Position numbers and translations under genes: made by a program
Part shown: positions 2,417-62,526 of the stretch, in pieces
How positions within the stretch are numbered: position 1 is the first letter of the stretch
Layout of the letters: each line of letters opens with the position of its first letter
Source of the DNA: Candidatus Zambryskibacteria bacterium RIFCSPLOWO2_01_FULL_35_19
Lineage (GTDB): Bacteria > Patescibacteriota > Minisyncoccia > Phycocordibacterales > WO2-35-19
Reading direction: 5' to 3'
Assembly (NCBI GenBank): GCA_001825335.1
Contig: MHWA01000004.1
Location: forward strand, 35,341-99,340
DNA: 64,000 bases
Notes under the pieces: generated by a model
Database searches by the model: none
Told to the model about the DNA's origin: nothing
Seen by the model: only the letters and a program-made list of their open reading frames with translations

Positions 2417-2779
2417 ATGAACAATAGAATTTTTATTATAATATTTGTAATCGTAGTCTTTATTCTTGGAGGCCTGCTTTATATTTATAATCCAAATCCA
2501 GTAAAATACGAAAATCCAAATGAAAAAGATCCTATAGTCTGCACAACAGATGCCAAACTTTGCCCTGACGGAAGTTATGTTGGTCGAACCGGACCAAATT
2601 GTGAATTTGTTTGCCCAGAAACCCCAAACAATAACATTCCACCTGGTGCAATATTTGAAGATGGCACCATAATAGAAGAAGATGAACCAATATTTTGCAC
2701 AGCAGATGCCAAGCTTTGCCCTGATGGAAGTTATGTTGGTAGAGTAGGTCCTAATTGTGAATTTGCACAATGTCCTTAA
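2417..2779 (+). CDS. hypothetical membrane-anchored protein with tandem Cys-rich repeat
   Basis: ORF 2357..2779; likely start at MNNRIF (2417). One TM helix, then two copies of C(T/A)(T/A)DAKLCPDGSYVGR(T/V)GPNCEF. The stop overlaps the recG start. Confidence 0.5.
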   Translation: MNNRIFIIIFVIVVFILGGLLYIYNPNPVKYENPNEKDPIVCTTDAKLCPDGSYVGRTGPNCEFVCPETPNNNIPPGAIFEDGTIIEEDEPIFCTADAKLCPDGSYVGRVGPNCEFAQCP

Positions 2780-5058
2780 ATATAATCAAAGCAGACACCA
2801 TCATTGAACAGATACAAAGACTTTCGCCTTTCCAAAAAAAAGCGTTAGTGAAAATGCGTCTTACCAAAGTTTCTGATATTTTAAGACATTTTCCTGTCAG
2901 ATACGGAGAGTCGGGTTTAGTTAAAGCCATCGAATTTTTGAATGAAGGCGATAATGCTGTGGTTTTTGGCAAGATATCCAAATTAAAAACAACTAAAACT
3001 TTTAAATCTAAAATAGCAATTTCAACAGCCGAAGTAGAGGACTCTACCGGAAAAGTAAAAATTGTATGGTTTAGTCAACCTTACATCGCTAAAATGTTTT
3101 TTGAAGGAAGTTTGGTGAGGATTGAAGGTCGAGTTTCTGCCAAAAAAAATAAACTAACAAAAACGAAGACGATAAGCGATAGCGAGGCGCGAGTTTCAGA
3201 AGAACTCAATTTTACAAACCCTAAAATAGAAAAGGTTACTCAAATACCCGAAGGCACTAGTGGCTCACTCTTTGCGGGATCCGAAGGAGACAGTCACAAC
3301 CTCTTCCCTGTTTATCCAGAAAGCAGAGGTATTTCTTCAAATTGGATTTATCATACTATCCAAAAAATTATATCAAGGAACGTCCTTGACACTTTAAAAG
3401 ATCCAATCCCTCAAGAAATTTTAAAAAAATATAATTTACCTTCTTTAAAAACAGCTTTGATCTGGATTCATGCTCCGCGTAAAAAAGAAAATGCTGAAAT
3501 AGCCAGAAAAAGATTTGCTTTTGAAGAAATATTTTTTATTCAAATTGATAGGCAAAAAGAAAAATTTATTGCCCAGAGAGAAAATTCTTTCACTATAGAA
3601 AAAGAAGCTGAAGTCAAAGATTTTGTAAAAAGTTTTCCTTTTCCATTAACTTCAGCTCAAGATAAATCTATCAAAGCCATCCTCAACGATTTTAAAACTG
3701 GCCATCCTATGTCTCGCTTGCTTGAAGGAGATGTCGGCTCTGGAAAGACCGCAGTAGCCACAGCAGCCAGCTTCGCGGCTGTCTCAACACTTCCTCCAGA
3801 TAGAAAATTTGGTAATTTGCAAGTTGCTTATATGGCTCCCACAGAAATTTTGGCAGAACAGCACTTTGAATCTTTTATTGAATATTTTTCTAAATACAAA
3901 ATACCAATAGGTCTTATTACTGGAAGCGGAGCCAAAAAATTCCCCTCCAAAACAAGCCAAGGACAGTCCTTAAAATGCCCCGACCCCAAAGGACTGTCCT
4001 TGGCTTGGACTAAAATATCTAAACCCCAACTCCTCAAATGGGTAGCAAATGGTGAAATACCTATCCTTATCGGCACTCACTCTCTCATCCAGAAAACAGT
4101 AAAGTTTAAAAACCTCGCTTTTATTATCATAGATGAACAACACCGCTTCGGAGTTAAACAAAGGATGAGTCTCCGCCGTAAACACGACATTGCTCCACAC
4201 CTCCTTTCAATGACTGCCACCCCCATCCCTCGCACTTTAGCTTTAACAATATTTGGAGACTTAGATTTATCTTTACTTGACGAATTACCTCCCGGACGAC
4301 AAATTCCCGAGACAAAAATAATTTTGCCCCACCAAAGAGAAGAGGTTTATAAACAAGTGAGAGAAGAATTAAAATCCGGTCGACAAGCTTTTGTTATTTG
4401 CGCCCGAGTAAACGACCCAGACCCAGACAAAGAAAATACTCTAAACGCCAAATCGGTCAAATCAGAAACCAAAAGGTTGCAAGAGAAAATATTTCCCGAG
4501 TTTAATGTTGGCTCCATCACCGGCAAGATGAAGCCGTCAGAAAAAGCAGATGTAATGAGAAGATTTTCCGCCAGAGGCGGATCCGCCTCTGGCGGAAAAG
4601 ATAAAAAGATTGATATTTTAGTGGCGACATCAGTTATAGAAGTAGGTATCAATGTTCCAAACGCCACCATCATTATTATTGAAAATGCCGAGCGTTTTGG
4701 TTTAGCTCAACTGCACCAACTCCGTGGAAGAGTCTTGCGAAGCTCTTTCAAACCACATTGTTTTGTTTTTGCTGATTCCAAAAACCAAAAAACAATATCT
4801 AGATTAAAATCATTTACTATCGCCAAAAACGGCTTTGAATTAGCCGAGGCAGACTTACAACAAAGAGGTGCGGGAGATTTAGCTGGTGCCAAACAGTGGG
4901 GTGTCTCTGACCTCGCTATGGAAGCTCTTAAAAATATAAAAATGGTAGAAGCGGCTAGAGAAGAAGCCAAAAATTTGATTGAAAAAGATTTTGAATTAAA
5001 AAAGTATCCTATTTTAGCCAAATATTTAGCAGAAAAAAATATAGTGCATATGGAGTAA
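2770..5058 (+). CDS. recG: ATP-dependent DNA helicase RecG
   Basis: 762 aa; Walker A GDVGSGKTAVA, DEQHRFG, TATPIPRTL, and a C-terminal helicase domain. It carries an in-frame insertion (see repeat at 3957-4003). Confidence 0.9.
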   Translation: MSLNIIKADTIIEQIQRLSPFQKKALVKMRLTKVSDILRHFPVRYGESGLVKAIEFLNEGDNAVVFGKISKLKTTKTFKSKIAISTAEVEDSTGKVKIVWFSQPYIAKMFFEGSLVRIEGRVSAKKNKLTKTKTISDSEARVSEELNFTNPKIEKVTQIPEGTSGSLFAGSEGDSHNLFPVYPESRGISSNWIYHTIQKIISRNVLDTLKDPIPQEILKKYNLPSLKTALIWIHAPRKKENAEIARKRFAFEEIFFIQIDRQKEKFIAQRENSFTIEKEAEVKDFVKSFPFPLTSAQDKSIKAILNDFKTGHPMSRLLEGDVGSGKTAVATAASFAAVSTLPPDRKFGNLQVAYMAPTEILAEQHFESFIEYFSKYKIPIGLITGSGAKKFPSKTSQGQSLKCPDPKGLSLAWTKISKPQLLKWVANGEIPILIGTHSLIQKTVKFKNLAFIIIDEQHRFGVKQRMSLRRKHDIAPHLLSMTATPIPRTLALTIFGDLDLSLLDELPPGRQIPETKIILPHQREEVYKQVREELKSGRQAFVICARVNDPDPDKENTLNAKSVKSETKRLQEKIFPEFNVGSITGKMKPSEKADVMRRFSARGGSASGGKDKKIDILVATSVIEVGINVPNATIIIIENAERFGLAQLHQLRGRVLRSSFKPHCFVFADSKNQKTISRLKSFTIAKNGFELAEADLQQRGAGDLAGAKQWGVSDLAMEALKNIKMVEAAREEAKNLIEKDFELKKYPILAKYLAEKNIVHME
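3957..4003. repeat. GC-rich palindromic element inserted in frame inside recG
   Basis: CCAAGGACAGTCCTT...(17 nt)...AAGGACTGTCCTTGG, a perfect 15-bp inverted repeat; it encodes SQGQSLKCPDPKGLSLAW, which looks like extra loop sequence relative to RecG as I recall it. Confidence 0.55.
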
Positions 5059-5071
5059 TTTATTTTAAAAA

Positions 5072-5098
5072 ATACAAGGAGAGTCCTTGTATTTTTTA
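5072..5098 (+). terminator. intrinsic terminator after recG
   Basis: ATACAAGGA GAG TCCTTGTAT, a 9-bp stem followed by TTTTTT. The stem shares the CAAGGA..TCCTTG motif with the in-frame recG element. Confidence 0.6.
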
Positions 5099-9045: not shown

Positions 9046-9460
9046 GGGGATGATCGGCCTAGACAATAAGATACATTTGTAAAATGCGAGAGAGAGCTAC
9101 AGTACACTCTTAAAACTGCTATAAAAGATAACTGCAAACAAAGTTGTCGCAAAAGCAAAAACCGTTGTTTCTCCATATTTTGGAGTGGGTGATTTTGCTT
9201 TCGCTTACGTTAGGGCTTAATTTTAAGTCTCGCTAAGCGACGTCAGATTCTTTGATGTCTCATAAAAGAAATCTGGTGTAATAAATTTGAGACTTTGAAA
9301 AATAGTTGCTTCGCTATTTTTTCTAAATGTTGAAGCTCGATATTTTAAGATCTTGTTTGTTCCATACTTAAAATATTTAAACAAACTGCAACAAACTAAC
9401 TCTTGTAGAAATTTTCCAAATCTCTTATTGCATGGCGGTTCGATTCCGCCCATCTCCACA
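9046..9460 (+). ncRNA. ssrA: tmRNA (SsrA) candidate
   Basis: Immediately downstream of smpB. 5' GGGGATG pairs with 3' CATCTCC including a G3:U70 wobble (the alanine identity element); T-arm GGCGGTTCGATTCCGCC; ends ...CATCTCCACA. The tag-peptide frame is not resolved. Listed ORFs 8970..9176 and 9223..9459 overlap it and are treated as spurious. Confidence 0.6.
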
Positions 9461-9477
9461 AAAATAAGGAACGTAGT

Positions 9478-9655: not shown

Positions 9656-10630
9656 TTACAAAAACCCAATGATAGCCACTATAAATAAAAAGTATAAACC
9701 CAAAAGCATAAATGCTTCTTTTTTGCTTATAGTGCTATGAGTCCTTACAAATATCAAAAAGAATAGAGTGGCAGCTATCATAAACAAACGACTAATTAAA
9801 AGAAAGGAGGCGTTACTAATTACAACAGGGTGAATTAAAGCCACCACTCCCAACACTACAGTAGCTGGAATAACAATAGAGCCCAAAAGATTGCCGAGAA
9901 TCATAAAGGTCTCTCCCTTTCTAGCTGAAGCGATAGAAAAGTATACTTCCGGCAAAGCATTACCAAAGCCGACAATCAAAAGACCAACCAAACTAATGGA
10001 TATTTTAAAACTTGAAGCAAAAAAAGAAGCTGACCCCACAACGCCTTGAGTGGCGATAAACAATAAAATAATTCCGAGCAAAACTTTTCCAATATTTTTA
10101 AGAGATTCATTCAAAATTTTCTTCCAATTTTTAGGTTCCTCCTCCCTGTATTTTTTGGTAAACCGCTCTTTCTTGGAAAAAAGCCATCCTAAATAGATTA
10201 TAAAAAGAAACAACAAAATAAACCCGTCAGCTCTTGATAAAACACCATCTATCAAAAGAATGATAGGTAAAATAGCCACGCAAATAGTGAAAATCAAAGA
10301 ACTTTTTACAGTTTGGCTTTCTATTTGTATTTCTTTTTTTGGAGAAAAGAGGACAGCCACAGCCACCGCCAAAGTTAAAGCGGTAAAATTATTACCAAAG
10401 ACATCACCCAAAGATAGTTGGGGTATGCCCTCCATTGCTGAAGTAATACCAACAAAAAAATTAGGCAAAGAAGAGGCAAAAGCCATTACAAAAAAGGCAA
10501 CCACAAACTCTTTCAATCCTAAAAAGTGAGAAAGTTTTACCAAACTAGTAACAACAAGTTCACCTGAAATATATAAAATTCCACAAGAAGCTAAAAATAT
10601 AGCAATGTTTACAAACCAATCCATTATCAA
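9656..10630 (-). CDS. Ca2+/cation antiporter, CaCA family (YrbG-like)
   Basis: 324 aa, about 10 TM segments; two alpha-repeat motifs (AFASSLPNFFVG and GFGNALPEVYFS) characteristic of Na+/Ca2+ exchanger family proteins. Confidence 0.7.
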   Translation of the reverse strand: MIMDWFVNIAIFLASCGILYISGELVVTSLVKLSHFLGLKEFVVAFFVMAFASSLPNFFVGITSAMEGIPQLSLGDVFGNNFTALTLAVAVAVLFSPKKEIQIESQTVKSSLIFTICVAILPIILLIDGVLSRADGFILLFLFIIYLGWLFSKKERFTKKYREEEPKNWKKILNESLKNIGKVLLGIILLFIATQGVVGSASFFASSFKISISLVGLLIVGFGNALPEVYFSIASARKGETFMILGNLLGSIVIPATVVLGVVALIHPVVISNASFLLISRLFMIAATLFFLIFVRTHSTISKKEAFMLLGLYFLFIVAIIGFL

Positions 10631-10952
10631 TTATTATACACAATTTTAACAGCAACTAACTTTATTGATTAAATACAAACAAAAAATCCCCACAAAGCCA
10701 CAGACAAACGAAATCTAAATGATACGAACGAGAAAATAGTGTTTAGAGGAGAGATATTTGTACTTCTTTTCACTTGCGCAAATAGAAGCAATATTACTCA
10801 CACCGTTTCCTTGCTCGCCCGCCATAGCTTTTTAAGCGAAGGAGAGTCGATTAGATTCCATAGTCTGCAGCTCTGTGGGGATTTTTCAAAATTTTATCTG
10901 CACCACGCCAATTTCTTCACAAACCTGCCCCATTAGATATTTCATCTAATGA

Positions 10953-11134
10953 GGTCTTCCAAACACACGACAGTGTCAAGGTTCAACCTTGACACTCTGA
11001 TTCGCGAACTTGGAAAATGAGGTGATGATCGGGGTCACCTCGTATAAACAACCGAAAGAACAATTCCTCGCCGATCGCGAGGATAAAACCGTGGGAGCTT
11101 TTATTAGGTCTGGGTAAAAGCTCCACAAAAACCC
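10953..11134 (+). ncRNA. GC-rich structured repeat unit A (candidate ncRNA, one of three paralogous copies)
   Basis: GGTCTTCCAAACACACGACAG...GGGAGCTTTTATTAGGTCTGGGTAAAAGCTCC..AAAAACCC; four hairpins conserved with copies B and C. Confidence 0.45.
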
Positions 11135-11154
11135 TTAAATCGGGGATAATGGGG

Positions 11155-11373
11155 TCAAAGTGTTCGATTCTCAAACGCAGACTTAACCGCGTTCATAGCG
11201 TCCGCGAGAGAATCAAACACACCTTCAGCCCCCCACGCTCCAGAGAGACGGTATCTATTATCAAACGACCGCTGTGCTGTCGCCATGATACCTCCGTCTA
11301 AAATGCAACGGTAATGGGTGGTGCTTTCTACCACCCACAACAATATACCGTCGGACCAATGTTCCTTTTTCAT
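11155..11373 (-). CDS. hypothetical small protein (72 aa) with conserved GC-rich leader
   Basis: MKKEHWSDGILLWVVESTTHYRCILDGG...; strong SD-like AGGAG/GGGAG upstream; GC-rich codons in an AT-rich genome. Confidence 0.35.
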   Translation of the reverse strand: MKKEHWSDGILLWVVESTTHYRCILDGGIMATAQRSFDNRYRLSGAWGAEGVFDSLADAMNAVKSAFENRTL

Positions 11374-11504
11374 CTCAAATCTCCCTCTAACTCCTCACTT
11401 GGCACATGCCGGCGCATTGGTTTGCGTGATCCGGTCAGGGCTGTGAGAAGTTTGGCAAGGCCATTCGCTTCACCAGCGGGAACCTTGCAGAAACCTAAAC
11501 CGTC
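11374..11504 (-). promoter_or_regulatory. conserved GC-rich 5' leader element, copy 1 (candidate cis-regulatory RNA)
   Basis: About 95 nt are nearly identical to 12588-12690, just upstream of an unrelated ORF: ...CACAGCCCTGACCGGATCACGCAAACCAATGCGCCGGCATGTGCCAAGTGAGGAG... ending in the RBS. Confidence 0.4.
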
Positions 11505-11533
11505 CGTTTTTTCAAAATTTTTTCAAAACAGGC

Positions 11534-11736
11534 GGTCTTCCAAACACACGACAGTGTCAAGGTTCAACCTTGACACTCTGATTCGCGAACTTGGAAAATG
11601 AGGTGATGATCGGGGTCACCTCGTATAAACCAAATGAACAACCCTTCAATTTCTCTCAGGGCAAGCCTCGCCGATCGCGAGGATAAAACCGTGGGAGCTT
11701 TTATTAGGTCTGGGTAAAAGCTCTGGGGAAAAACCC
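11534..11736 (+). ncRNA. GC-rich structured repeat unit B (candidate ncRNA)
   Basis: Same architecture as unit A, with a 19-nt indel (not a multiple of 3) in the central region; directly followed by two intrinsic terminators. Confidence 0.5.
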
Positions 11737-11746
11737 ATGAAGCGAT

Positions 11747-11770
11747 AAGACTCTATTAGAGTCTTTTTTT
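11747..11770 (+). terminator. intrinsic terminator 1 after repeat unit B
   Basis: AAGACTCTA T TAGAGTCTT + TTTTTTT. Confidence 0.55.
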
Positions 11771-11938
11771 CAACTCCCCCAAAAACTGGGGGAGTGTTTT
11801 TTTGGTGGGCGGAAGAAGAAGATTATCCTTCCACCCGTAGCCATTGGCTCTAAATCCGAGCCAAATAGCTACCCCCATAGCCCCGAAGACGACCGCAAGG
11901 GTCGTCAATACAAAAAAAATGGACTCTACTATTCCCAT
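11756..11938 (-). CDS. hypothetical small membrane peptide (60 aa)
   Basis: MGIVESIFFVLTTLAVVFGAMGVAIWLGFRANGYGWKDNLLLPPTKKTLPQFLGELKKRL; a single TM helix; RBS GAAGGAG upstream. The listed ORF 11756..12142 is trimmed because its N-terminal part is a translation of repeat unit C. The peptide's 3' end overlaps the plus-strand terminators convergently. Confidence 0.3.
   Translation of the reverse strand: MGIVESIFFVLTTLAVVFGAMGVAIWLGFRANGYGWKDNLLLPPTKKTLPQFLGELKKRL
11774..11803 (+). terminator. intrinsic terminator 2 after repeat unit B
   Basis: CTCCCCCAAAAACTGGGGGAG + TGTTTTTTT. Confidence 0.55.
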
Positions 11939-12034
11939 TTTTATTTTTCTCCTTCTCTCTCCCCCGCTTTTCCCCGAGGGTGGGAAAATTCTAAACCAAA
12001 CGATTTCTAAAATTAAAAAAATCAGAAATCGCGT

Positions 12035-12235
12035 GGTCTTCCAAACACACGACAGTGTCAAAGACGGTCTTTGACATCCTGATTCACGAACTTGGAAAAT
12101 GAGGTGATGATCGGTATCACCTCGTATAAACTGAATGAACAACCCTTCAATTTCTCTCAGGGCAAGCCTCGCCGATCACGAGGATGAAACCATGGGAGCT
12201 TTTTAGGTCTGGGTAAAAGCTCCGGAAAAAAACCC
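12035..12235 (+). ncRNA. GC-rich structured repeat unit C (candidate ncRNA)
   Basis: A diverged copy; the hairpins are kept by compensatory changes (GTGTCAAGGTTCAACCTTGACAC becomes GTGTCAAAGACGGTCTTTGACAT; GGTGATGATCGGGGTCACC becomes GGTGATGATCGGTATCACC). Confidence 0.45.
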
Positions 12236-12242
12236 AGAAGAT

Positions 12243-22614: not shown

Positions 22615-22968
22615 AAAATTTGAATTAAAAAAAACCTGCTACTAATGCAGGCGGCAAGACTCCGACAAAAAGCCCGCCACCAGGAAGGTCCGAAGACCTC
22701 TATAAGAGTTTCCCCTTATAACGTTGAGAACGCCCTGAATGACGGGTTGTTTGTTCTCAACGATTTTCGACCATGCCAGAGTTTGAAGCTACTGGTTTAG
22801 GTCTTTCGGACTATTTAGTTGTATTTATATAGTAATACTTGCCTCTCGTTAAGTAAACAAGTAATTTGAAAAGGCCTTATTATAAATTTATACAAAAAGG
22901 TATAATGACCTTACAAATCCATAGCCTAAACCGTTTTAGCGGCATGGCAAAAACCAACCACGAAATCC

Positions 22969-31202: not shown

Positions 31203-31415
31203 TAAGACAAATATGGACTGATGCGGATTTAAGCGGTATTATTTATAGATAATTGAATAAGCCTAAACTTGCCAAGCCAAATTAGCAAGCATGGCGCAAA
31301 CCCAACCACGGCAGAGAACTCCTCGTTCAGGAGCACCGTGGTTGGTCCCATCCGGAAACGGGTGGTGGGTGGCGTAAGCCATCGCCTGGCGGGGAGTTTT
31401 CTGCCATCCCAAAAC

Positions 31416-45236: not shown

Positions 45237-46121
45237 TTATTTAATTTTCAAACTTTCCCCATCACTCTCAAACACAATTCTTCCATCTTTATCAGTCCTC
45301 AATATTTCAGCTCCAAAATTGTTTAAAATATCCAAAACTTCTTGGCTTGGATGGCCATAGCGATTATCTTTACCCGCTGAAATAACTACATATTCAGGAG
45401 AAACTGCCGTGACAAAATCCGGACTGGTGGAAGTTTTGGAACCATGGTGCCCAGCTTTTAAGACATCACTTTCTAATCCACCCAAAGAAATAAGATAATT
45501 TTCGATTGATTTTGGTGAATCACCAGTAAATAAAAATTCATTTTCCCCATAAACTAACCTCGCTATAATAGAAGAGGTATTAGTTTCCATTCCTGCTGGA
45601 TCTCGGTCTGGAAAAAGAATTTGCAAAACAACCCCATCGCCTAAATCAACTACCATTCCTCTCCTAACCAATATTTTTTTCAAGGGTTCCCCTTTAAAAT
45701 TTCCTAAGGGGACCCCTTGGGATTTTTCTTCAACAATTTTTTCAAGTTCCTTATAAGAAGATGACTCACCAGAAACTCCTGTCTCCATAAAAATATCTAC
45801 TTTATATTTTTGCAAAACATCAGGTATTCCGCCGATATGATCTTGGTCAGCGTGAGTTGCTAAAACCACATCAATAGAACGGTCATAAAAAGGCATTACT
45901 TTACTAAGTTCTCTAAGAACTGATTTGTTTGGGCCACCATCTATAAGTATTTGGCTACCAGAGGGGGCTTCAATAAAAATAGCGTCGCCTTGACCGATAT
46001 TTAAAAAAGCGACAGTCAAAATACCTCTCCTTTCTTCTTTAAAAGCAACATAAATAGAGAAAATGGTTATAAAAAATAAAGTCAGAAAAATAATAAGTTT
46101 AAAAATTGATTTTCTTTCCAT
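45237..46121 (-). CDS. MBL-fold hydrolase, ComEC C-terminal-domain-like (stand-alone)
   Basis: 294 aa; N-terminal TM; GQGDAIFIE...HADQDHIGG. Confidence 0.7.
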   Translation of the reverse strand: MERKSIFKLIIFLTLFFITIFSIYVAFKEERRGILTVAFLNIGQGDAIFIEAPSGSQILIDGGPNKSVLRELSKVMPFYDRSIDVVLATHADQDHIGGIPDVLQKYKVDIFMETGVSGESSSYKELEKIVEEKSQGVPLGNFKGEPLKKILVRRGMVVDLGDGVVLQILFPDRDPAGMETNTSSIIARLVYGENEFLFTGDSPKSIENYLISLGGLESDVLKAGHHGSKTSTSPDFVTAVSPEYVVISAGKDNRYGHPSQEVLDILNNFGAEILRTDKDGRIVFESDGESLKIK

Positions 46122-47115: not shown

Positions 47116-48735
47116 TTATGAAAATTTCCTCTCTTTTAATTTTCTATACAAAACTCCATAACCCAAATACCAAACAAGAATAAACCAAAATGAAATAGAA
47201 CCAGTTTGTAAAATAGCAAAAGGAAGATTTGCTCCAAACTCGGTGACACCGATTATTATTTGAGAAATAAAATAAGAAAGCACTCCAACCGGCCAAGAAA
47301 CAATTTGTCCAACGAAAGGCAAGATGCCCAAAGCACCAGTGAGAGCACCAAATGCCATCGCCCAAGGAACTAAAGGTAAGACCAACGGATTGGCTATAAA
47401 AGAAACTATAGAAACAAAGCCAGACATCCTAATAAGTAGTGGTAATACAAAAAACTGGACAGCAATAGTAGCAGAGACTATCTCTCGCAAACCAAATTTT
47501 TCGGGAACAAAATTTAATTTTGAAAAAACAAAAGGTGAAAATAAAATAAGACCAAAAGTTGCCATAAAAGAAAGCTGAAAAGACGGATCATAAAAAAGTA
47601 AAAGAGGATTCCAAAGTAACATCAAAAACCCAGCAATAAAAAGAAATCGTAAAGCATCACTTGGCCGACCTAAAAATCTAGCGAGGATAGCAATGAGAGC
47701 CATAATACTTGCTCTTATAACTGTAGCTCCCAAACCAACCATAATAGAAAACAAAATAATAAAAATGGCGCTTAATATAAAACTAAGATTTCTCTTACCT
47801 AAAAAAGAGGTCAGATAAAAAATACCAATAGCGATGATGGTAATATTGTATCCAGACAAAACAACAATGTGAATGAGCCCCACTTTTCTAAAATCATCTA
47901 AAAGCTCTGCACCTAAAGATTGCTTCACTCCAAAAATAAGTCCACCTAAAAGCGACGAGTTTGGTTCAGGTACTACAGCGCTAATTTTTTCTATAAAAAT
48001 TTTTTTTAGCAAGTAGAGTGTCGCGACTATTTTTCTTGCCCCGCGAAGTTCTGTGGAACTGGACGAAGTGGGGTATAATTCTGGCCGATAAATAATAAAA
48101 TGTATTTTGTCTTTTGATAAATATGAAATGTAATCAAATTCTGTTCCACTCTCACTTAAAAAATTTTTAGGCAACTCTAATTTTCCAGAAACGCTTATCT
48201 TATCTCCATACTCAAGCTCGGGGAAGCGATCCGCGACCAACAAAATGAGTGAATTTGAATTCTTATTCGGGAGATCCTCTGTAATGCACGGATAAAATTC
48301 TGCTGAATTTTTCCTCGTGCTCGCTCCGTCGAGCCTCGCAAGGCATTCCAGAGAATCTCCACTCAACGAATTCAAATTAACTGAAACGATGTAACGGGTA
48401 GAGGCATCTCGAATATCAGCTTCTTCAGATACGACAGCTTCAAAAGAAATTTTTTGTCCAACATGCTCGAGCAGATTAGAGTCTGGAGAAATATCTACCA
48501 CCGCCATTCTCAAAGTTCCCAAACAAAAAGCCAGACCGATTATTAAAAATAATCTTGAGATATTTAAGGGCAACCCTTCCGAAACAATCCTCAAGGGTTG
48601 CCCTTGAGAACGAAAAGAAAAAACAAACAAAACCAAAGAAACTACAAAAACCAAAACTCCCGCGCTCCAACCCAAACCAAAAATTTCTTCAAAGGCGATC
48701 CCTAATGCAAATGAAACGACTGATGGATATATCAT
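47116..48735 (-). CDS. comEC: ComEC/Rec2 competence-channel membrane domain protein (no MBL domain)
   Basis: 539 aa; Competence-domain motif GLIHIVVLSGYNITIIAIG; polytopic. Confidence 0.75.
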   Translation of the reverse strand: MIYPSVVSFALGIAFEEIFGLGWSAGVLVFVVSLVLFVFSFRSQGQPLRIVSEGLPLNISRLFLIIGLAFCLGTLRMAVVDISPDSNLLEHVGQKISFEAVVSEEADIRDASTRYIVSVNLNSLSGDSLECLARLDGASTRKNSAEFYPCITEDLPNKNSNSLILLVADRFPELEYGDKISVSGKLELPKNFLSESGTEFDYISYLSKDKIHFIIYRPELYPTSSSSTELRGARKIVATLYLLKKIFIEKISAVVPEPNSSLLGGLIFGVKQSLGAELLDDFRKVGLIHIVVLSGYNITIIAIGIFYLTSFLGKRNLSFILSAIFIILFSIMVGLGATVIRASIMALIAILARFLGRPSDALRFLFIAGFLMLLWNPLLLFYDPSFQLSFMATFGLILFSPFVFSKLNFVPEKFGLREIVSATIAVQFFVLPLLIRMSGFVSIVSFIANPLVLPLVPWAMAFGALTGALGILPFVGQIVSWPVGVLSYFISQIIIGVTEFGANLPFAILQTGSISFWFILVWYLGYGVLYRKLKERKFS

Positions 48736-61615: not shown

Positions 61616-61686
61616 CAAAACTACTTTTCCAAGAGCCTTATCCTATTGACCTAACGCAGGAAAAGTATGTTTTGTTATTTTCTGTT
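61604..61686 (+). repeat. hairpin element with conserved loop (family copy 5)
   Basis: 27-bp stem AACAGAAAATAACAAAACTACTTTTCC/GGAAAAGTATGTTTTGTTATTTTCTGTT; loop AAGAGCCTTATCCTATTGACCTAACGCA. It spans the Xer stop and the xth start region. Confidence 0.6.
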
Positions 61687-62526
61687 AAAATGAAATTTAT
61701 GAAAATCACATCTTGGAACATAAATGGCATACGGGCGGTGCATAAAAAAGGACTGTTTTTACCTTTTGTAGATAAATACAAGCCGGATATTATTTGTTTG
61801 CAAGAAACTAAAGCCAAGCAGGATCAAAGTGAGATAGACTTGCCAGAATATGAGGAGTATTGGAACAGTGCAGAAAAAGCTGGTTATAGCGGAGTGACTA
61901 TTTTTTCTAAAATAAAACCACTTAGTGTGCAGACTGGCTTTCCGAAAGAGATAGTTAAAAAATATAAATTAGAACAAGACAGCTATGGCGACCCAAACAA
62001 AGAAGGGAGAGTTTTAACGGCCGAATTTAAAGATTTTTTTGTGGTTAATGTCTATACTCCCAATTCTAAAGGTGATTTAAGTAGGCTGGATTTAAGATTT
62101 AAGAGTTGGGACCCAGCGTTTTTAGAGTATGTTACAGAATTAAGGAGAAAGCCCGCCCAAGGCGGGTCCGCCTTGGGCGGAAAAAATGTAATATTCTGCG
62201 GTGATTTGAATGTGGCCCACACAGAAAATGACTTGGCTAATCCCAAACAAAATGAAGGCGAGCATGGTTTTACAAAAGAAGAACGCAAAGGAATTAACAA
62301 CATTATTGCCGCCGGATTTGTAGATACCTTTCGCCATTTTACTCCAGAAGGAAAAGGTTACTACACTTGGTGGAGTCATTTCGCTAATGCTAGAACCAGA
62401 AATGTTGGCTGGCGCATAGACTATTTTTTTGCCAACAAAGAATTAATATCAAATATAAAAAGTTCAAAAATCATTCCAGATGTATTTGGTTCTGACCACT
62501 GCCCTATTATGTTAGAAACAAAATAA
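61672..62526 (+). CDS. xth: exodeoxyribonuclease III (AP endonuclease)
   Basis: ITSWNINGIRA, LQETK, CGDLNVAH, SDHCP; the start is more likely the ATG at 61690 (MKFMKITSW). It contains an in-frame GC-rich palindrome. Confidence 0.8.
   Translation: MLFSVKMKFMKITSWNINGIRAVHKKGLFLPFVDKYKPDIICLQETKAKQDQSEIDLPEYEEYWNSAEKAGYSGVTIFSKIKPLSVQTGFPKEIVKKYKLEQDSYGDPNKEGRVLTAEFKDFFVVNVYTPNSKGDLSRLDLRFKSWDPAFLEYVTELRRKPAQGGSALGGKNVIFCGDLNVAHTENDLANPKQNEGEHGFTKEERKGINNIIAAGFVDTFRHFTPEGKGYYTWWSHFANARTRNVGWRIDYFFANKELISNIKSSKIIPDVFGSDHCPIMLETK
62151..62180. repeat. GC-rich nested palindrome inserted in frame inside xth
   Basis: GCCCGCCCAAGGCGGGTCCGCCTTGGGCGG encodes KPAQGGSALGG between ELRRK and NVIFCGDLNVAH. 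It shares the CCAAGG/CCTTGG core with the recG element. Confidence 0.5.

What the first reader, a model, noticed from the sequence alone, without database searches (positions are those of the whole stretch)
3957..4003. In-frame GC-rich palindromic insertion inside recG
A perfect 15-bp inverted repeat, CCAAGGACAGTCCTT...AAGGACTGTCCTTGG, sits in the coding sequence between ITGSGAKK and the conserved IPILIGTHSLIQ. It adds about 18 residues that RecG, as I recall it, lacks at that position.

Its arms resemble the recG terminator stem (CAAGGAGAGTCCTTG). A second example lies inside xth. This recalls the Rickettsia palindromic elements that insert in frame into housekeeping genes.
Basis: seen in the sequence. 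Interest (0 to 1): 0.55.

Follow-up and report, generated by a model that had tools for sequence, protein, structure and literature searches.

The report
In-frame REPIN repeat inside recG
The palindrome inside recG is a real, translated copy of a tiny selfish DNA repeat (a REP doublet, or REPIN), and a contig assigned to the same candidate-phyla-radiation genome bin carries a matching transposase gene flanked by the same repeat; this kind of repeat is known from other bacteria, though here many copies sit inside genes.

Summary
A perfect 19-bp inverted repeat (3953-3971 / 3989-4007, 17-nt loop) lies in frame in recG. Each arm is itself a small palindrome (AAGGA-N3-TCCTT).

Of 120 RecG homologues, 103 lack the element and have only T-NKEK-W at this site. 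Seventeen carry it, in independent JGI, ENA, NCBI and Logan assemblies.

It belongs to a dispersed family, CAAGG-N5-CCTT...AAGG-N5'-CCTTG. The window holds two more in-frame copies, in ComEC-like and MBL-fold ORFs.

The family flanks genes for an IS200-like Y1 (HUH) transposase, the REP-associated RAYT type. The window's own MAG encodes one on another contig. The hairpins flanking it match the recG arms at 16 of 17 bases and match the recG "terminator" exactly.

So the element is a REPIN inserted in frame into a tolerated RecG loop. The Rickettsia analogy is right in kind.

The xth example, and a second recG palindrome at 4564-4599, belong to a different 30-nt family with no transposase identified.

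Intragenic REPs in repair genes are already documented. I found no report for Patescibacteria. Verdict: new member of a known kind.

The parts
3953..4007 (+). REPIN (REP doublet) in frame in recG. Arms at 3953-3971 and 3989-4007, REP cores AAGGACAGTCCTT (3959-3971) and AAGGACTGTCCTT (3989-4001), loop 3972-3988. Encodes SQGQSLKCPDPKGLSLA.
   Evidence: sequence; absent from most orthologues; covariation; 16 of 17 identity to the REPs flanking the RAYT gene of the same MAG; folding; residues 402-410 are low-confidence coil.
2770..5058 (+). recG ORF (762 aa), host gene of the element.
   Evidence: 100% identical to RecG of Parcubacteria group bacterium GW2011_GWC1_34_10; homology to 1GM5.
5066..5098 (.). 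Single REP hairpin just downstream of recG (TAAAAAATACAAGGAGAGTCCTTGTATTTTTTA), shaped like a bidirectional terminator.
   Evidence: 28 bases identical to the REP immediately downstream of the RAYT gene in L221 (same MAG); the reverse complement flanks the RAYT gene in L204.
3371..3387 (+). Single REP-like palindrome TCAAGGAACGTCCTTGA inside recG (site C, peptide SRNVLD), with no length change.
   Evidence: relatives keep a palindrome here with paired changes (L037 TCAAGGGGAACCCTTGA, L001 TCAAAGGGGACCTTTGA, L013 TCAAAGGGCATCTTTGA).
45682..45718 (-). Second in-frame REPIN of the same family, in the MBL-fold (ComEC C-domain-like) ORF 45237..46121(-). Arms AAGGGGTCCCCTT / AAGGGGAACCCTT (1 mismatch). 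Peptide SQGVPLGNFKGEPL.
   Evidence: the insert is present only in the closest ~22 of 120 homologues.
48566..48605 (-). Third in-frame REPIN, in the ComEC-like ORF 47116..48735(-). Arms AAGGGCAACCCTT / AAGGGTTGCCCTT (perfect). Peptide SQGQPLRIVSEGLPL.
   Evidence: the closest homologues (L183, P0361) lack about 11-12 residues here, but the loop is variable in length across the family.
10972..10996 (.). REP-like single hairpin AGTGTCAAGGTTCAACCTTGACACT, first of two identical copies, in a repeated ORF-poor unit.
   Evidence: The same arm flavour (CAAGGTTCAACCTTG) occurs in many metagenome REPINs.
11553..11577 (.). Second copy of the same REP-like hairpin.
4567..4596 (+). Different family (B): a 30-nt perfect palindrome TCCGCC-AGA-GGCGGA-TCCGCC-TCT-GGCGGA inserted exactly between TTT and AAA of recG (36-nt palindrome 4564-4599 with flanks). 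Encodes SARGGSASGG. No link to a RAYT shown.
   Evidence: empty allele TTT AAA; identical 36-mer at another recG site in L003/L004; low-confidence coil at 603-611.
62151..62180 (+). Family B copy in the xth-like ORF 61672..62526(+). Encodes PAQGGSALGG.
   Evidence: a 10-residue gap at exactly this place in ExoA 5CFE and in 8IGI.

Best explanation
The recG palindrome is a REPIN: two inverted copies of a short REP hairpin (CAAGGA-N3-TCCTTG) separated by 17 nt. It belongs to a dispersed repeat family that accompanies a RAYT-type Y1 (HUH) tyrosine transposase.

Shown:
- The element is an insertion relative to most orthologues.
- Near-identical family members sit in unrelated sequence contexts.
- The transposase genes are flanked on both sides by the same hairpins, including in the window's own MAG.
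- Both possible folds (one long hairpin, or two small REP hairpins) are kept through paired base changes.
- The copy is open in frame in every carrier and maps to a low-confidence loop of the RecG model.

Inferred, by analogy with IS608 TnpA and E. coli TnpA-REP: the RAYT recognises the small REP hairpins on single-stranded DNA and cuts and rejoins there, which moves or copies the doublet.

Also inferred: in this gene-dense genome (most random positions in the related loci are coding), many insertions land in genes. Only those that preserve frame, introduce no stop and fall in permissive surface loops survive. The recG copy is then translated as about 13 extra, probably disordered, residues in helicase domain 1, with little effect on RecG.
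For: Insertion polymorphism. 17 of 120 RecG homologues carry the element. The rest have T-NKEK-W.

Over-representation in the window. AAGG-N5-CCTT occurs 11 times against 1.8 expected, and there are two further in-frame doublets.

Metagenome scan. Of 133 matches, 87 have N5 perfectly complementary between arms (about 0.1% expected by chance) and 22 have one mismatch.

Dispersal. Identical or at least 90% identical elements lie in non-homologous flanks: L133 (two copies), L189/L200, L152/L219, L157 (three copies).

Transposase link:
- The L157 ORF 1210..2028 matches Pfam Y1_Tnp (29.2 bits, cut-off 23) and is flanked by doublets at 1135-1173 and 2044-2081.
- Homologues occur in 11 of 120 pattern-retrieved loci (804 kb) against 1 of 55 recG-retrieved CPR loci (843 kb).
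- REP hairpins flank the gene in L204, L133, L159, L104, L103, L167 and L180.
- More distant homologues carry their own cognate hairpins.

Same MAG. P0244, named 'Transposase [Parcubacteria group bacterium GW2011_GWC1_34_10]', has 82% identity to the L204 protein used as query; that query matches Pfam Y1_Tnp at 40.7 bits, and Y1_Tnp is the precomputed domain listed for P0244. In L221 it is flanked by CTACCAAGGACTCTCCTTGGTAG, CTACCAAGGAGAGTCCTTGGTA and ATACAAGGAGAGTCCTTGTAT. The recG arm CCAAGGACAGTCCTTGG differs from these at 1 of 17 bases.

Catalytic motifs. The HUH motif and a Tyr are invariant in the alignment. The best PDB profile hit is E. coli TnpA-REP 4ER8, though weak at E = 0.04.

Covariation in 9 orthologues. 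Long hairpin: 95% of cells paired, 6 pairs changed on both sides, 0 of 500 shuffles as high. Two mini-hairpins: 5 such pairs, 1 of 500. This fits the hairpin versus 'clover' folds proposed for REPINs (PMC3116915).

Precedent. Intragenic REP dimers in replication and repair genes are documented (PMC3733652).
Against: - No transposition was observed. The link to the RAYT is by association only.
- The RAYT of this MAG lacks 8 conserved residues (LFSYIHLN) and may be defective.
- The RAYT sits on another contig of a binned MAG, so mis-binning cannot be excluded.
- NCBIfam's RayT equivalog model scores 44 bits against a cut-off of 80.
- No conserved GTAG or CGTC tag is present.
- The recG site is not a clean insertion: 50 nt replace 11 nt, and no target duplication can be defined.
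- Carriers are not monophyletic in a poorly resolved NJ tree. One event followed by recombination, repeated events, and repeated loss cannot be told apart.
- The ComEC and MBL copies use AAGGG/CCCTT stems, unlike the REPs flanking this MAG's RAYT.
Confidence: 0.8

Rival explanations
1. A palindrome generated locally, with no mobile element involved. Replication template switching at a small quasi-palindrome made an inverted duplication. Further templated mutation then perfected and extended it. Similar copies elsewhere would be convergent.
For: The site is not a clean insertion. The outer stem (CAAGCC/GGCTTG) looks partly remodelled from the ancestral flank ACAAACAAAG. At recG site C a single palindrome exists with no length change. 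Coordinated four-position changes in the arms are what hairpin-templated mutation would produce.
Against: Identical and near-identical elements occur in unrelated flanks and genes. There is a nested copy inside another copy in L005. The family is physically tied to Y1 transposase genes, including in the same MAG. Templated correction may still explain how arms stay paired, but it does not explain origin or spread.
Confidence: 0.07
2. A host-selected structural element. The hairpin in recG mRNA or DNA would serve the cell, for example by controlling mRNA decay or ribosome pausing, or as a binding or uptake site. Mobility would be incidental.
For: The hairpin is very stable (-34.9 kcal/mol as RNA). 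Pairing is maintained over species-level divergence while the encoded peptide changes freely (Q/R, S/T, L/P). A sister REP sits where a recG terminator is expected.
Against: Most orthologues function without it. Two close relatives carry decaying arms (L001, L037). No U-tract follows it. Copies in one genome differ in the inner stem bases, which argues against a sequence-specific binding or uptake site. Insertion sites are variable loops of unrelated proteins.
Confidence: 0.1
3. An RPE-type or generic MITE element with terminal inverted repeats and no dedicated Y1 transposase.
For: The element is palindromic, in frame and translated, and sits in housekeeping genes of a reduced, AT-rich genome, as described for RPEs (PMC10969869).
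Against: It is 55 nt long, against about 150 bp for classical RPEs. No target duplication was detected. A cognate Y1 transposase flanked by the same hairpins exists. The short RPE-4 and RPE-6 are themselves classed as REPs, so this rival largely merges into the main explanation.
Confidence: 0.02
4. An assembly or sequencing artefact (fold-back chimera).
For: Perfect palindromes can arise from library artefacts.
Against: The same insertion, with lineage-specific substitutions, appears in independent assemblies from JGI, ENA, NCBI and Logan samples. It is always in frame.
Confidence: 0.01

Closest known systems
REP / REPIN - RAYT systems (E. coli, Pseudomonas fluorescens; Nunvar 2010; Bertels & Rainey 2011, PMC3116915; Ton-Hoang 2012)
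   Same: A short palindromic unit occurs as singlets and as inverted doublets that fold into a hairpin. The family is dispersed and over-represented. A Y1/HUH transposase gene is flanked by the same units. Different transposase lineages carry different cognate hairpins. Both the long-hairpin and two-small-hairpin folds are conserved.
   Different: The doublets are smaller (37-55 nt). The conserved stem base is CAAGG/CCTTG rather than a GTAG tag. The transposase is distant from the proteobacterial RayT model (44 bits against a cut-off of 80). The host is a CPR/Patescibacteria bacterium. About half of the evaluable copies lie inside long ORFs (41 of 74), so they are not mainly extragenic.
Intragenic REPs in replication and repair genes (Di Nocera et al. 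2013, PMC3733652)
   Same: REP singlets and dimers lie inside known genes in frame, often in DNA repair genes (uvrA, uvrB, recB). They encode roughly 20-30 residues and are presumed neutral in loops.
   Different: Those carry GTAG or CGTC tags and were described in Opitutus, Rickettsia, Xanthomonas, Thioalkalivibrio and others. CPR bacteria and recG are not among the cases I read.
Rickettsia palindromic elements (RPE; Ogata et al. 2000, 2002; reviewed in PMC10969869)
   Same: Palindromic repeats are inserted in frame into housekeeping genes of a reduced AT-rich genome, and are translated and tolerated at protein surfaces.
   Different: Classical RPEs are about 150 bp, are restricted to Rickettsia, and no transposase has been tied to them in the sources I read (the rest is my own recollection). 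I did not test sequence similarity. Membership is not claimed.
IS200/IS605 elements and their non-autonomous palindrome-associated derivatives
   Same: They use a Y1 HUH transposase that acts on subterminal hairpins in single-stranded DNA and inserts without target duplication. These mechanistic points are from my own knowledge of the family.
   Different: In IS200/IS605 the transposase gene is part of the mobile unit. No TnpB was seen in the Pfam lists for the called genes of L221, the one transposase locus with such annotation. No conserved target tetranucleotide was identified.

Membership tests
REP/REPIN-RAYT | Short palindromic unit (REP) able to form a hairpin | tested here: met
   AAGGA-CAG-TCCTT and AAGGA-CTG-TCCTT cores. 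Intra-arm pairs covary: 5 pairs changed on both sides, 1 of 500 shuffles as high.
REP/REPIN-RAYT | Two REPs in inverted orientation with a short spacer, folding into one hairpin (REPIN) | tested here: met
   19-bp perfect stem with a 17-nt loop. -22.1 kcal/mol as DNA, z = -9. 6 covarying pairs, 0 of 500 shuffles as high.
REP/REPIN-RAYT | Repetitive and dispersed: the same unit in many unrelated places | tested here: met
   11 against 1.8 expected in the window. 87 perfect doublets in a truncated metagenome scan. Identical copies in non-homologous flanks. A whole-genome copy number for this MAG could not be counted.
REP/REPIN-RAYT | A Y1/HUH (RAYT) gene in the same genome, flanked by the same REP | tested here: met
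   P0244 / L221 comes from GCA_000990165.1, the same named MAG as the window. REPs lie at 9906-9930, 9968-9990 and just downstream of the gene. They match the recG arm at 16 of 17 bases and the recG terminator REP at 28 of 28. Caveat: this is a binned MAG.
REP/REPIN-RAYT | Transposase belongs to the Y1_Tnp / RayT protein family | tested here: inconclusive
   Pfam Y1_Tnp is passed (40.7 and 29.2 bits, cut-off 23). HUH and Tyr are invariant. The NCBIfam REP_Tyr_transpos equivalog scores 28-44 bits against a cut-off of 80. The PDB profile hit to TnpA-REP 4ER8 reaches only E = 0.04.
REP/REPIN-RAYT | Predominantly extragenic location | tested here: not met
   All three doublets in the window are inside ORFs. 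41 of 74 evaluable metagenome copies lie in stop-to-stop ORFs of at least 150 aa, against 79% of random positions. Intragenic exceptions are documented.
REP/REPIN-RAYT | Conserved GTAG (or CGTC) tetranucleotide at one end of the REP | tested here: not met
   Two of the REPs flanking the RAYT end in GGTAG or GGTAT. Across 85 distinct perfect doublets no conserved tag is seen, only a weak preference for G then A/T.
REP/REPIN-RAYT | RAYT binds and cleaves the REP as single-stranded DNA; the REPIN excises | not testable with these tools
   Needs biochemistry or deep population sequencing.
Rickettsia palindromic elements | In-frame, translated palindromic insertion in housekeeping genes | tested here: met
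   No stops or frameshifts in about 12 distinct orthologous copies. The host genes are recG, ComEC-like and MBL-fold.
Rickettsia palindromic elements | About 150-bp element of one of the RPE consensus families, in Rickettsia | tested here: not met
   The element is 55 nt and the host is a Parcubacteria MAG. RPE length comes from PMC10969869. Sequence comparison with RPE consensus sequences was not done.
MITE (TIR plus target-site duplication) | Direct duplication of the target flanking the element | tested here: not met
   Family B inserts exactly between TTT and AAA with no duplication. The site A boundaries are remodelled and no duplication can be defined.

The most novel reading that the evidence does not exclude
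In Paceibacteria-type CPR bacteria, REPIN-RAYT systems have adapted to a genome with almost no intergenic space by living largely inside genes. On this reading they are a major, recurrent source of the lineage-specific loop insertions seen in CPR proteins. Resident intragenic copies would be kept as perfect nested palindromes for species-level times by an active process, either hairpin-templated conversion or RAYT-mediated arm replacement at hot spots, rather than by decay-and-loss dynamics.
Probability: 0.3. Interest if true: 0.6.

Novelty: new member of a known kind. Interest (0 to 1): 0.45.

Why it matters
It explains a class of odd, GC-rich, lineage-specific peptide insertions in CPR housekeeping proteins as transposase-associated selfish repeats rather than functional novelties or assembly errors. 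That bears on annotation, alignment trimming and phylogenomics of these genomes.

It extends REP/REPIN-RAYT systems to Patescibacteria. I found no paper in the searched library that links the two.

It also supplies a natural data set for studying how nested palindromes are maintained: orthologous intragenic REPINs with a conserved loop and co-varying arms. Finally, it shows that a streamlined genome can tolerate such repeats inside essential-type genes.

Tried and rejected
- Terminator reading of the recG-internal hairpin: rejected, because no U-tract follows it.
- Rfam: no family covers the element. The only hits in the window are tmRNA, tRNA-Ser and two LOOT RNAs.
- Viral contigs: the family A hits there were chance matches with non-complementary N5. 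Two family B-like hits (L090, L091) were not followed up.
- Sequence-specific protein-binding or DNA-uptake site: rejected, because copies in the same genome differ in the inner stem bases while keeping pairing.
- Intron- or intein-like removal: considered unlikely, because every orthologous copy is open and in frame.
- Single ancient insertion with clean vertical descent: not supported by the NJ tree, but the tree is too poorly resolved to conclude anything.
- GTAG tag: looked for and not found as a general feature.
- RAYT homologue inside the 64-kb window: none (tblastn).
- The 'LRLRSGQA' type insert at the same recG site: one copy only among all fetched loci, so not pursued.
- Literature searches for CPR plus palindromic, in-frame, RAYT or REPIN returned nothing relevant.
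Full report
**The observation**

The reported 15-bp arms are present at 3957-3971 and 3989-4003. The perfect inverted repeat is longer than reported. Its arms are 19 nt (3953-3971 and 3989-4007), 100% complementary, and 17 nt apart.

Each arm is itself a small palindrome, AAGGA-CAG-TCCTT or AAGGA-CTG-TCCTT. AAGGACNGTCCTT with up to one mismatch occurs 4 times in the window against 0.17 expected. AAGG-N5-CCTT occurs 11 times against 1.8 expected. In both cases 0 of 100 shuffles reach the observed count.

The element lies in frame in recG (2770..5058, +). This protein is 100% identical to RecG of Parcubacteria group bacterium GW2011_GWC1_34_10. The strand folds at -22.1 kcal/mol as DNA and -34.9 kcal/mol as RNA, with z near -9.

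**It is an insertion and not an artefact**

In an alignment of 120 RecG homologues, 103 read KKFPSK-(T)NKEK-WTKISKPQLLKW or a similar short form at this site. Seventeen carry SQG[QR][ST]L..C..PKG..LA.

DNA from independent JGI, ENA, NCBI and Logan assemblies shows the same element at the same site. It always keeps the same length (60 nt between the conserved flanking codons, except for the nested copy in L005) and never has a stop or frameshift.

The net gain over empty alleles is 13 residues. Against T. maritima RecG (1GM5), residues 390-415 have no counterpart.

In an AlphaFold model (mean pLDDT 74), residues 402-410 are coil with pLDDT below 50, lying between well-predicted strands.

**It belongs to a dispersed family**

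The window holds two more in-frame doublets of the same design.
- 48566-48605, in a ComEC-like ORF: peptide SQGQPLRIVSEGLPL.
- 45682-45718, in an MBL-fold ORF: peptide SQGVPLGNFKGEPL.

The MBL copy is present only in the closest ~22 of 120 homologues. The ComEC copy is missing from the closest homologues, although that loop varies in length across the family.

One relative (L005/L006/L010) has a second doublet nested in the loop of the recG doublet.

Of 133 matches, 87 have N5 perfectly complementary between the arms (about 0.1% expected by chance) and 22 have one mismatch.

Identical or at least 90% identical elements occur in non-homologous flanks. Among 99 perfect elements, 38 also have both inner pairs of each arm complementary, against 6% expected. 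The nested palindrome is therefore a property of the family.

**The link to a transposase**

In L157 three doublets cluster within 1 kb. Two flank, and one lies inside, an ORF of 272 aa that matches Pfam Y1_Tnp (IS200-like transposase; 29.2 bits, cut-off 23). The ORF carries an HUH motif and a conserved tyrosine.

Homologues of this protein occur in 11 of the 120 loci fetched by the hairpin pattern (804 kb). They occur in only 1 of 55 CPR loci fetched through recG (843 kb).

In L204, L133, L159, L104, L103, L167 and L180 the gene is flanked by CAAGG-N5-CCTTG hairpins. More distant homologues (L032, L195, L169) are flanked by their own different hairpins. This is the arrangement described for REP-associated tyrosine transposases (RAYTs) and their REPs (PMC3116915, PMC3733652).

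A protein search found P0244, named 'Transposase [Parcubacteria group bacterium GW2011_GWC1_34_10]', from the window's own MAG. In its contig (L221, GCA_000990165.1) the gene is preceded by CTACCAAGGACTCTCCTTGGTAG and CTACCAAGGAGAGTCCTTGGTA, and followed by AAAAAATACAAGGAGAGTCCTTGTATTT.

The last of these matches 28 bases of the hairpin just downstream of recG in the window (5066-5098). The recG in-frame arm CCAAGGACAGTCCTTGG differs from the flanking REPs at one base in 17.

**How it most likely works**

Shown:
- Insertion polymorphism.
- Dispersal of the family.
- Association with the transposase gene.
- An open reading frame in every carrier.
- Conservation of both folds. In nine orthologous copies the long hairpin has 95% of cells paired and 6 pairs changed on both sides (0 of 500 shuffles as high). 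The two small hairpins have 5 such pairs (1 of 500).

The encoded peptide changes freely (Q/R, S/T, L/P), so the constraint acts on the nucleic acid. Bertels and Rainey proposed exactly these two REPIN folds: a stable hairpin, and a 'clover' of two REP hairpins that the RAYT would recognise.

Inferred, by analogy with IS608 TnpA and E. coli TnpA-REP: the RAYT acts on the small hairpins in single-stranded DNA and moves or copies the doublet.

Also inferred: in these related loci about 79% of random positions fall in long ORFs. Many insertions therefore hit genes, and only in-frame, stop-free ones in permissive loops persist. In the metagenome sample, 41 of 74 evaluable copies lie in stop-to-stop ORFs of at least 150 aa.

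**What remains open**

At the recG site the loop is homologous across lineages, while the arms differ by coordinated changes at up to four positions and stay perfectly paired. Carriers are not monophyletic in a poorly resolved NJ tree. I cannot separate vertical descent with hairpin-templated conversion from allele transfer by recombination, or from repeated insertion.

The site is not a clean insertion. Fifty nucleotides replace eleven.

The RAYT of this MAG lacks eight conserved residues and sits on another contig of a binned genome.

The protein is far from NCBI's RayT model (44 bits against a cut-off of 80). There is no general GTAG tag.

**The second family**

It is a 30-nt perfect palindrome, TCCGCC-N3-GGCGGA-TCCGCC-N3'-GGCGGA, encoding A[QR]GGSA[LS]GG.

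In recG it sits exactly between TTT and AAA of the empty allele, with no target duplication. The identical 36-mer lies at a different recG site in L003/L004. A third lineage (L100) has it at the window's site with different but still complementary loops. L001 and L095 keep six-base footprints.

In xth the ten residues are absent from ExoA 5CFE.

**Comparison and verdict**

The element works like, and meets most defining features of, a REPIN of a REP-RAYT system. It fails the 'extragenic' and 'GTAG tag' criteria.

Intragenic REP dimers in replication and repair genes are documented, and the short Rickettsia RPE-4 and RPE-6 are classed as REPs (PMC3733652). The element is nevertheless not an RPE, which is classically about 150 bp.

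I found no paper that links RAYT or REPIN with Patescibacteria.

I file it as a new member of a known kind. It is of moderate interest, mainly for CPR genome annotation and for the unusually clear covariation at an orthologous intragenic REPIN.

Noticed in passing
window 4564-4599 and 62151-62180; L003 10550-10585; L100 7860-7887; L099 10563-10590: A second family of in-frame palindromes, 30 nt long: TCCGCC-N3-GGCGGA-TCCGCC-N3'-GGCGGA. In recG it lands at TTY^AAA at two different sites in four lineages. One identical 36-mer is shared by genomes whose RecG is only 82% identical. No transposase has been identified.
   Followed up: partly
window 31260-31383 (+) and 22685-22803 (-): Two matches to Rfam LOOT RNA (RF03000; 76.9 and 73.4 bits against a gathering score of 46.4). 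They account for two GC-rich inverted repeats seen in the hairpin scan.
   Followed up: no
window 10944-12236: Three copies of a ~180-215-nt unit, spaced 500-600 nt apart, in a stretch without convincing ORFs. Each carries a REP-like hairpin (GTGTCAAGGTTCAACCTTGACAC twice, TGTCAAAGACGGTCTTTGACA once). This may be a REP cluster with repeated flanks, or a small-RNA family.
   Followed up: partly
window 48248-48382 (ComEC-like ORF, - strand): A 135-nt imperfect palindrome (40-nt arms, 78% complementary). It coincides with a 27-residue segment (GDSLECLARLDGASTRKNSAEFYPCIT) that is absent from all 19 aligned ComEC homologues. It is RPE-sized and could be another in-frame palindromic insertion.
   Followed up: partly
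RecG site A and the MBL loop in relatives (P0009, P0011, P0012, P0017, P0106, P0109, P0116; L100 7232-7264; L007 1888-1929): The same permissive loops carry other GC-rich insert types in other lineages (TLRLRSGQAT, RRDPSASSGQE, VRSPSTSSGQT, DPAFAKATAGKP, NPTSLKLRGT). These loops appear to be recurrent landing sites for several repeat families.
   Followed up: partly
L157 1419-1454; L032 5786-5808; L195 2089-2117 and 2370-2396: RAYT-like transposase genes themselves contain in-frame copies of their own cognate REP or REPIN.
   Followed up: no
L221 10001-10645 (same MAG as the window): This MAG's RAYT-like protein lacks eight residues (LFSYIHLN) that are conserved in all seven aligned homologues. 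It may be decaying.
   Followed up: no
window about 61950-61990 (xth-like ORF): The xth-like protein has a further 13-residue segment (IVKKYKLEQDSYG) with no counterpart in ExoA 5CFE or 8IGI. It was not among the GC-rich perfect inverted repeats (stem >=9) found by the window-wide scan; no targeted check of this segment was made.
   Followed up: no
L001 4837-4845 and L095 10457-10465: Six-base footprints (TCC GCT, TCT GCC) remain where relatives carry the 30-nt family B palindrome. The deletion in L001 also removed six flanking bases. This is evidence of imprecise loss.
   Followed up: partly
window 9046-9461 and 2189-2276: A tmRNA gene next to smpB, and a tRNA-Ser(GCT) gene. Both are ordinary.
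   Followed up: no
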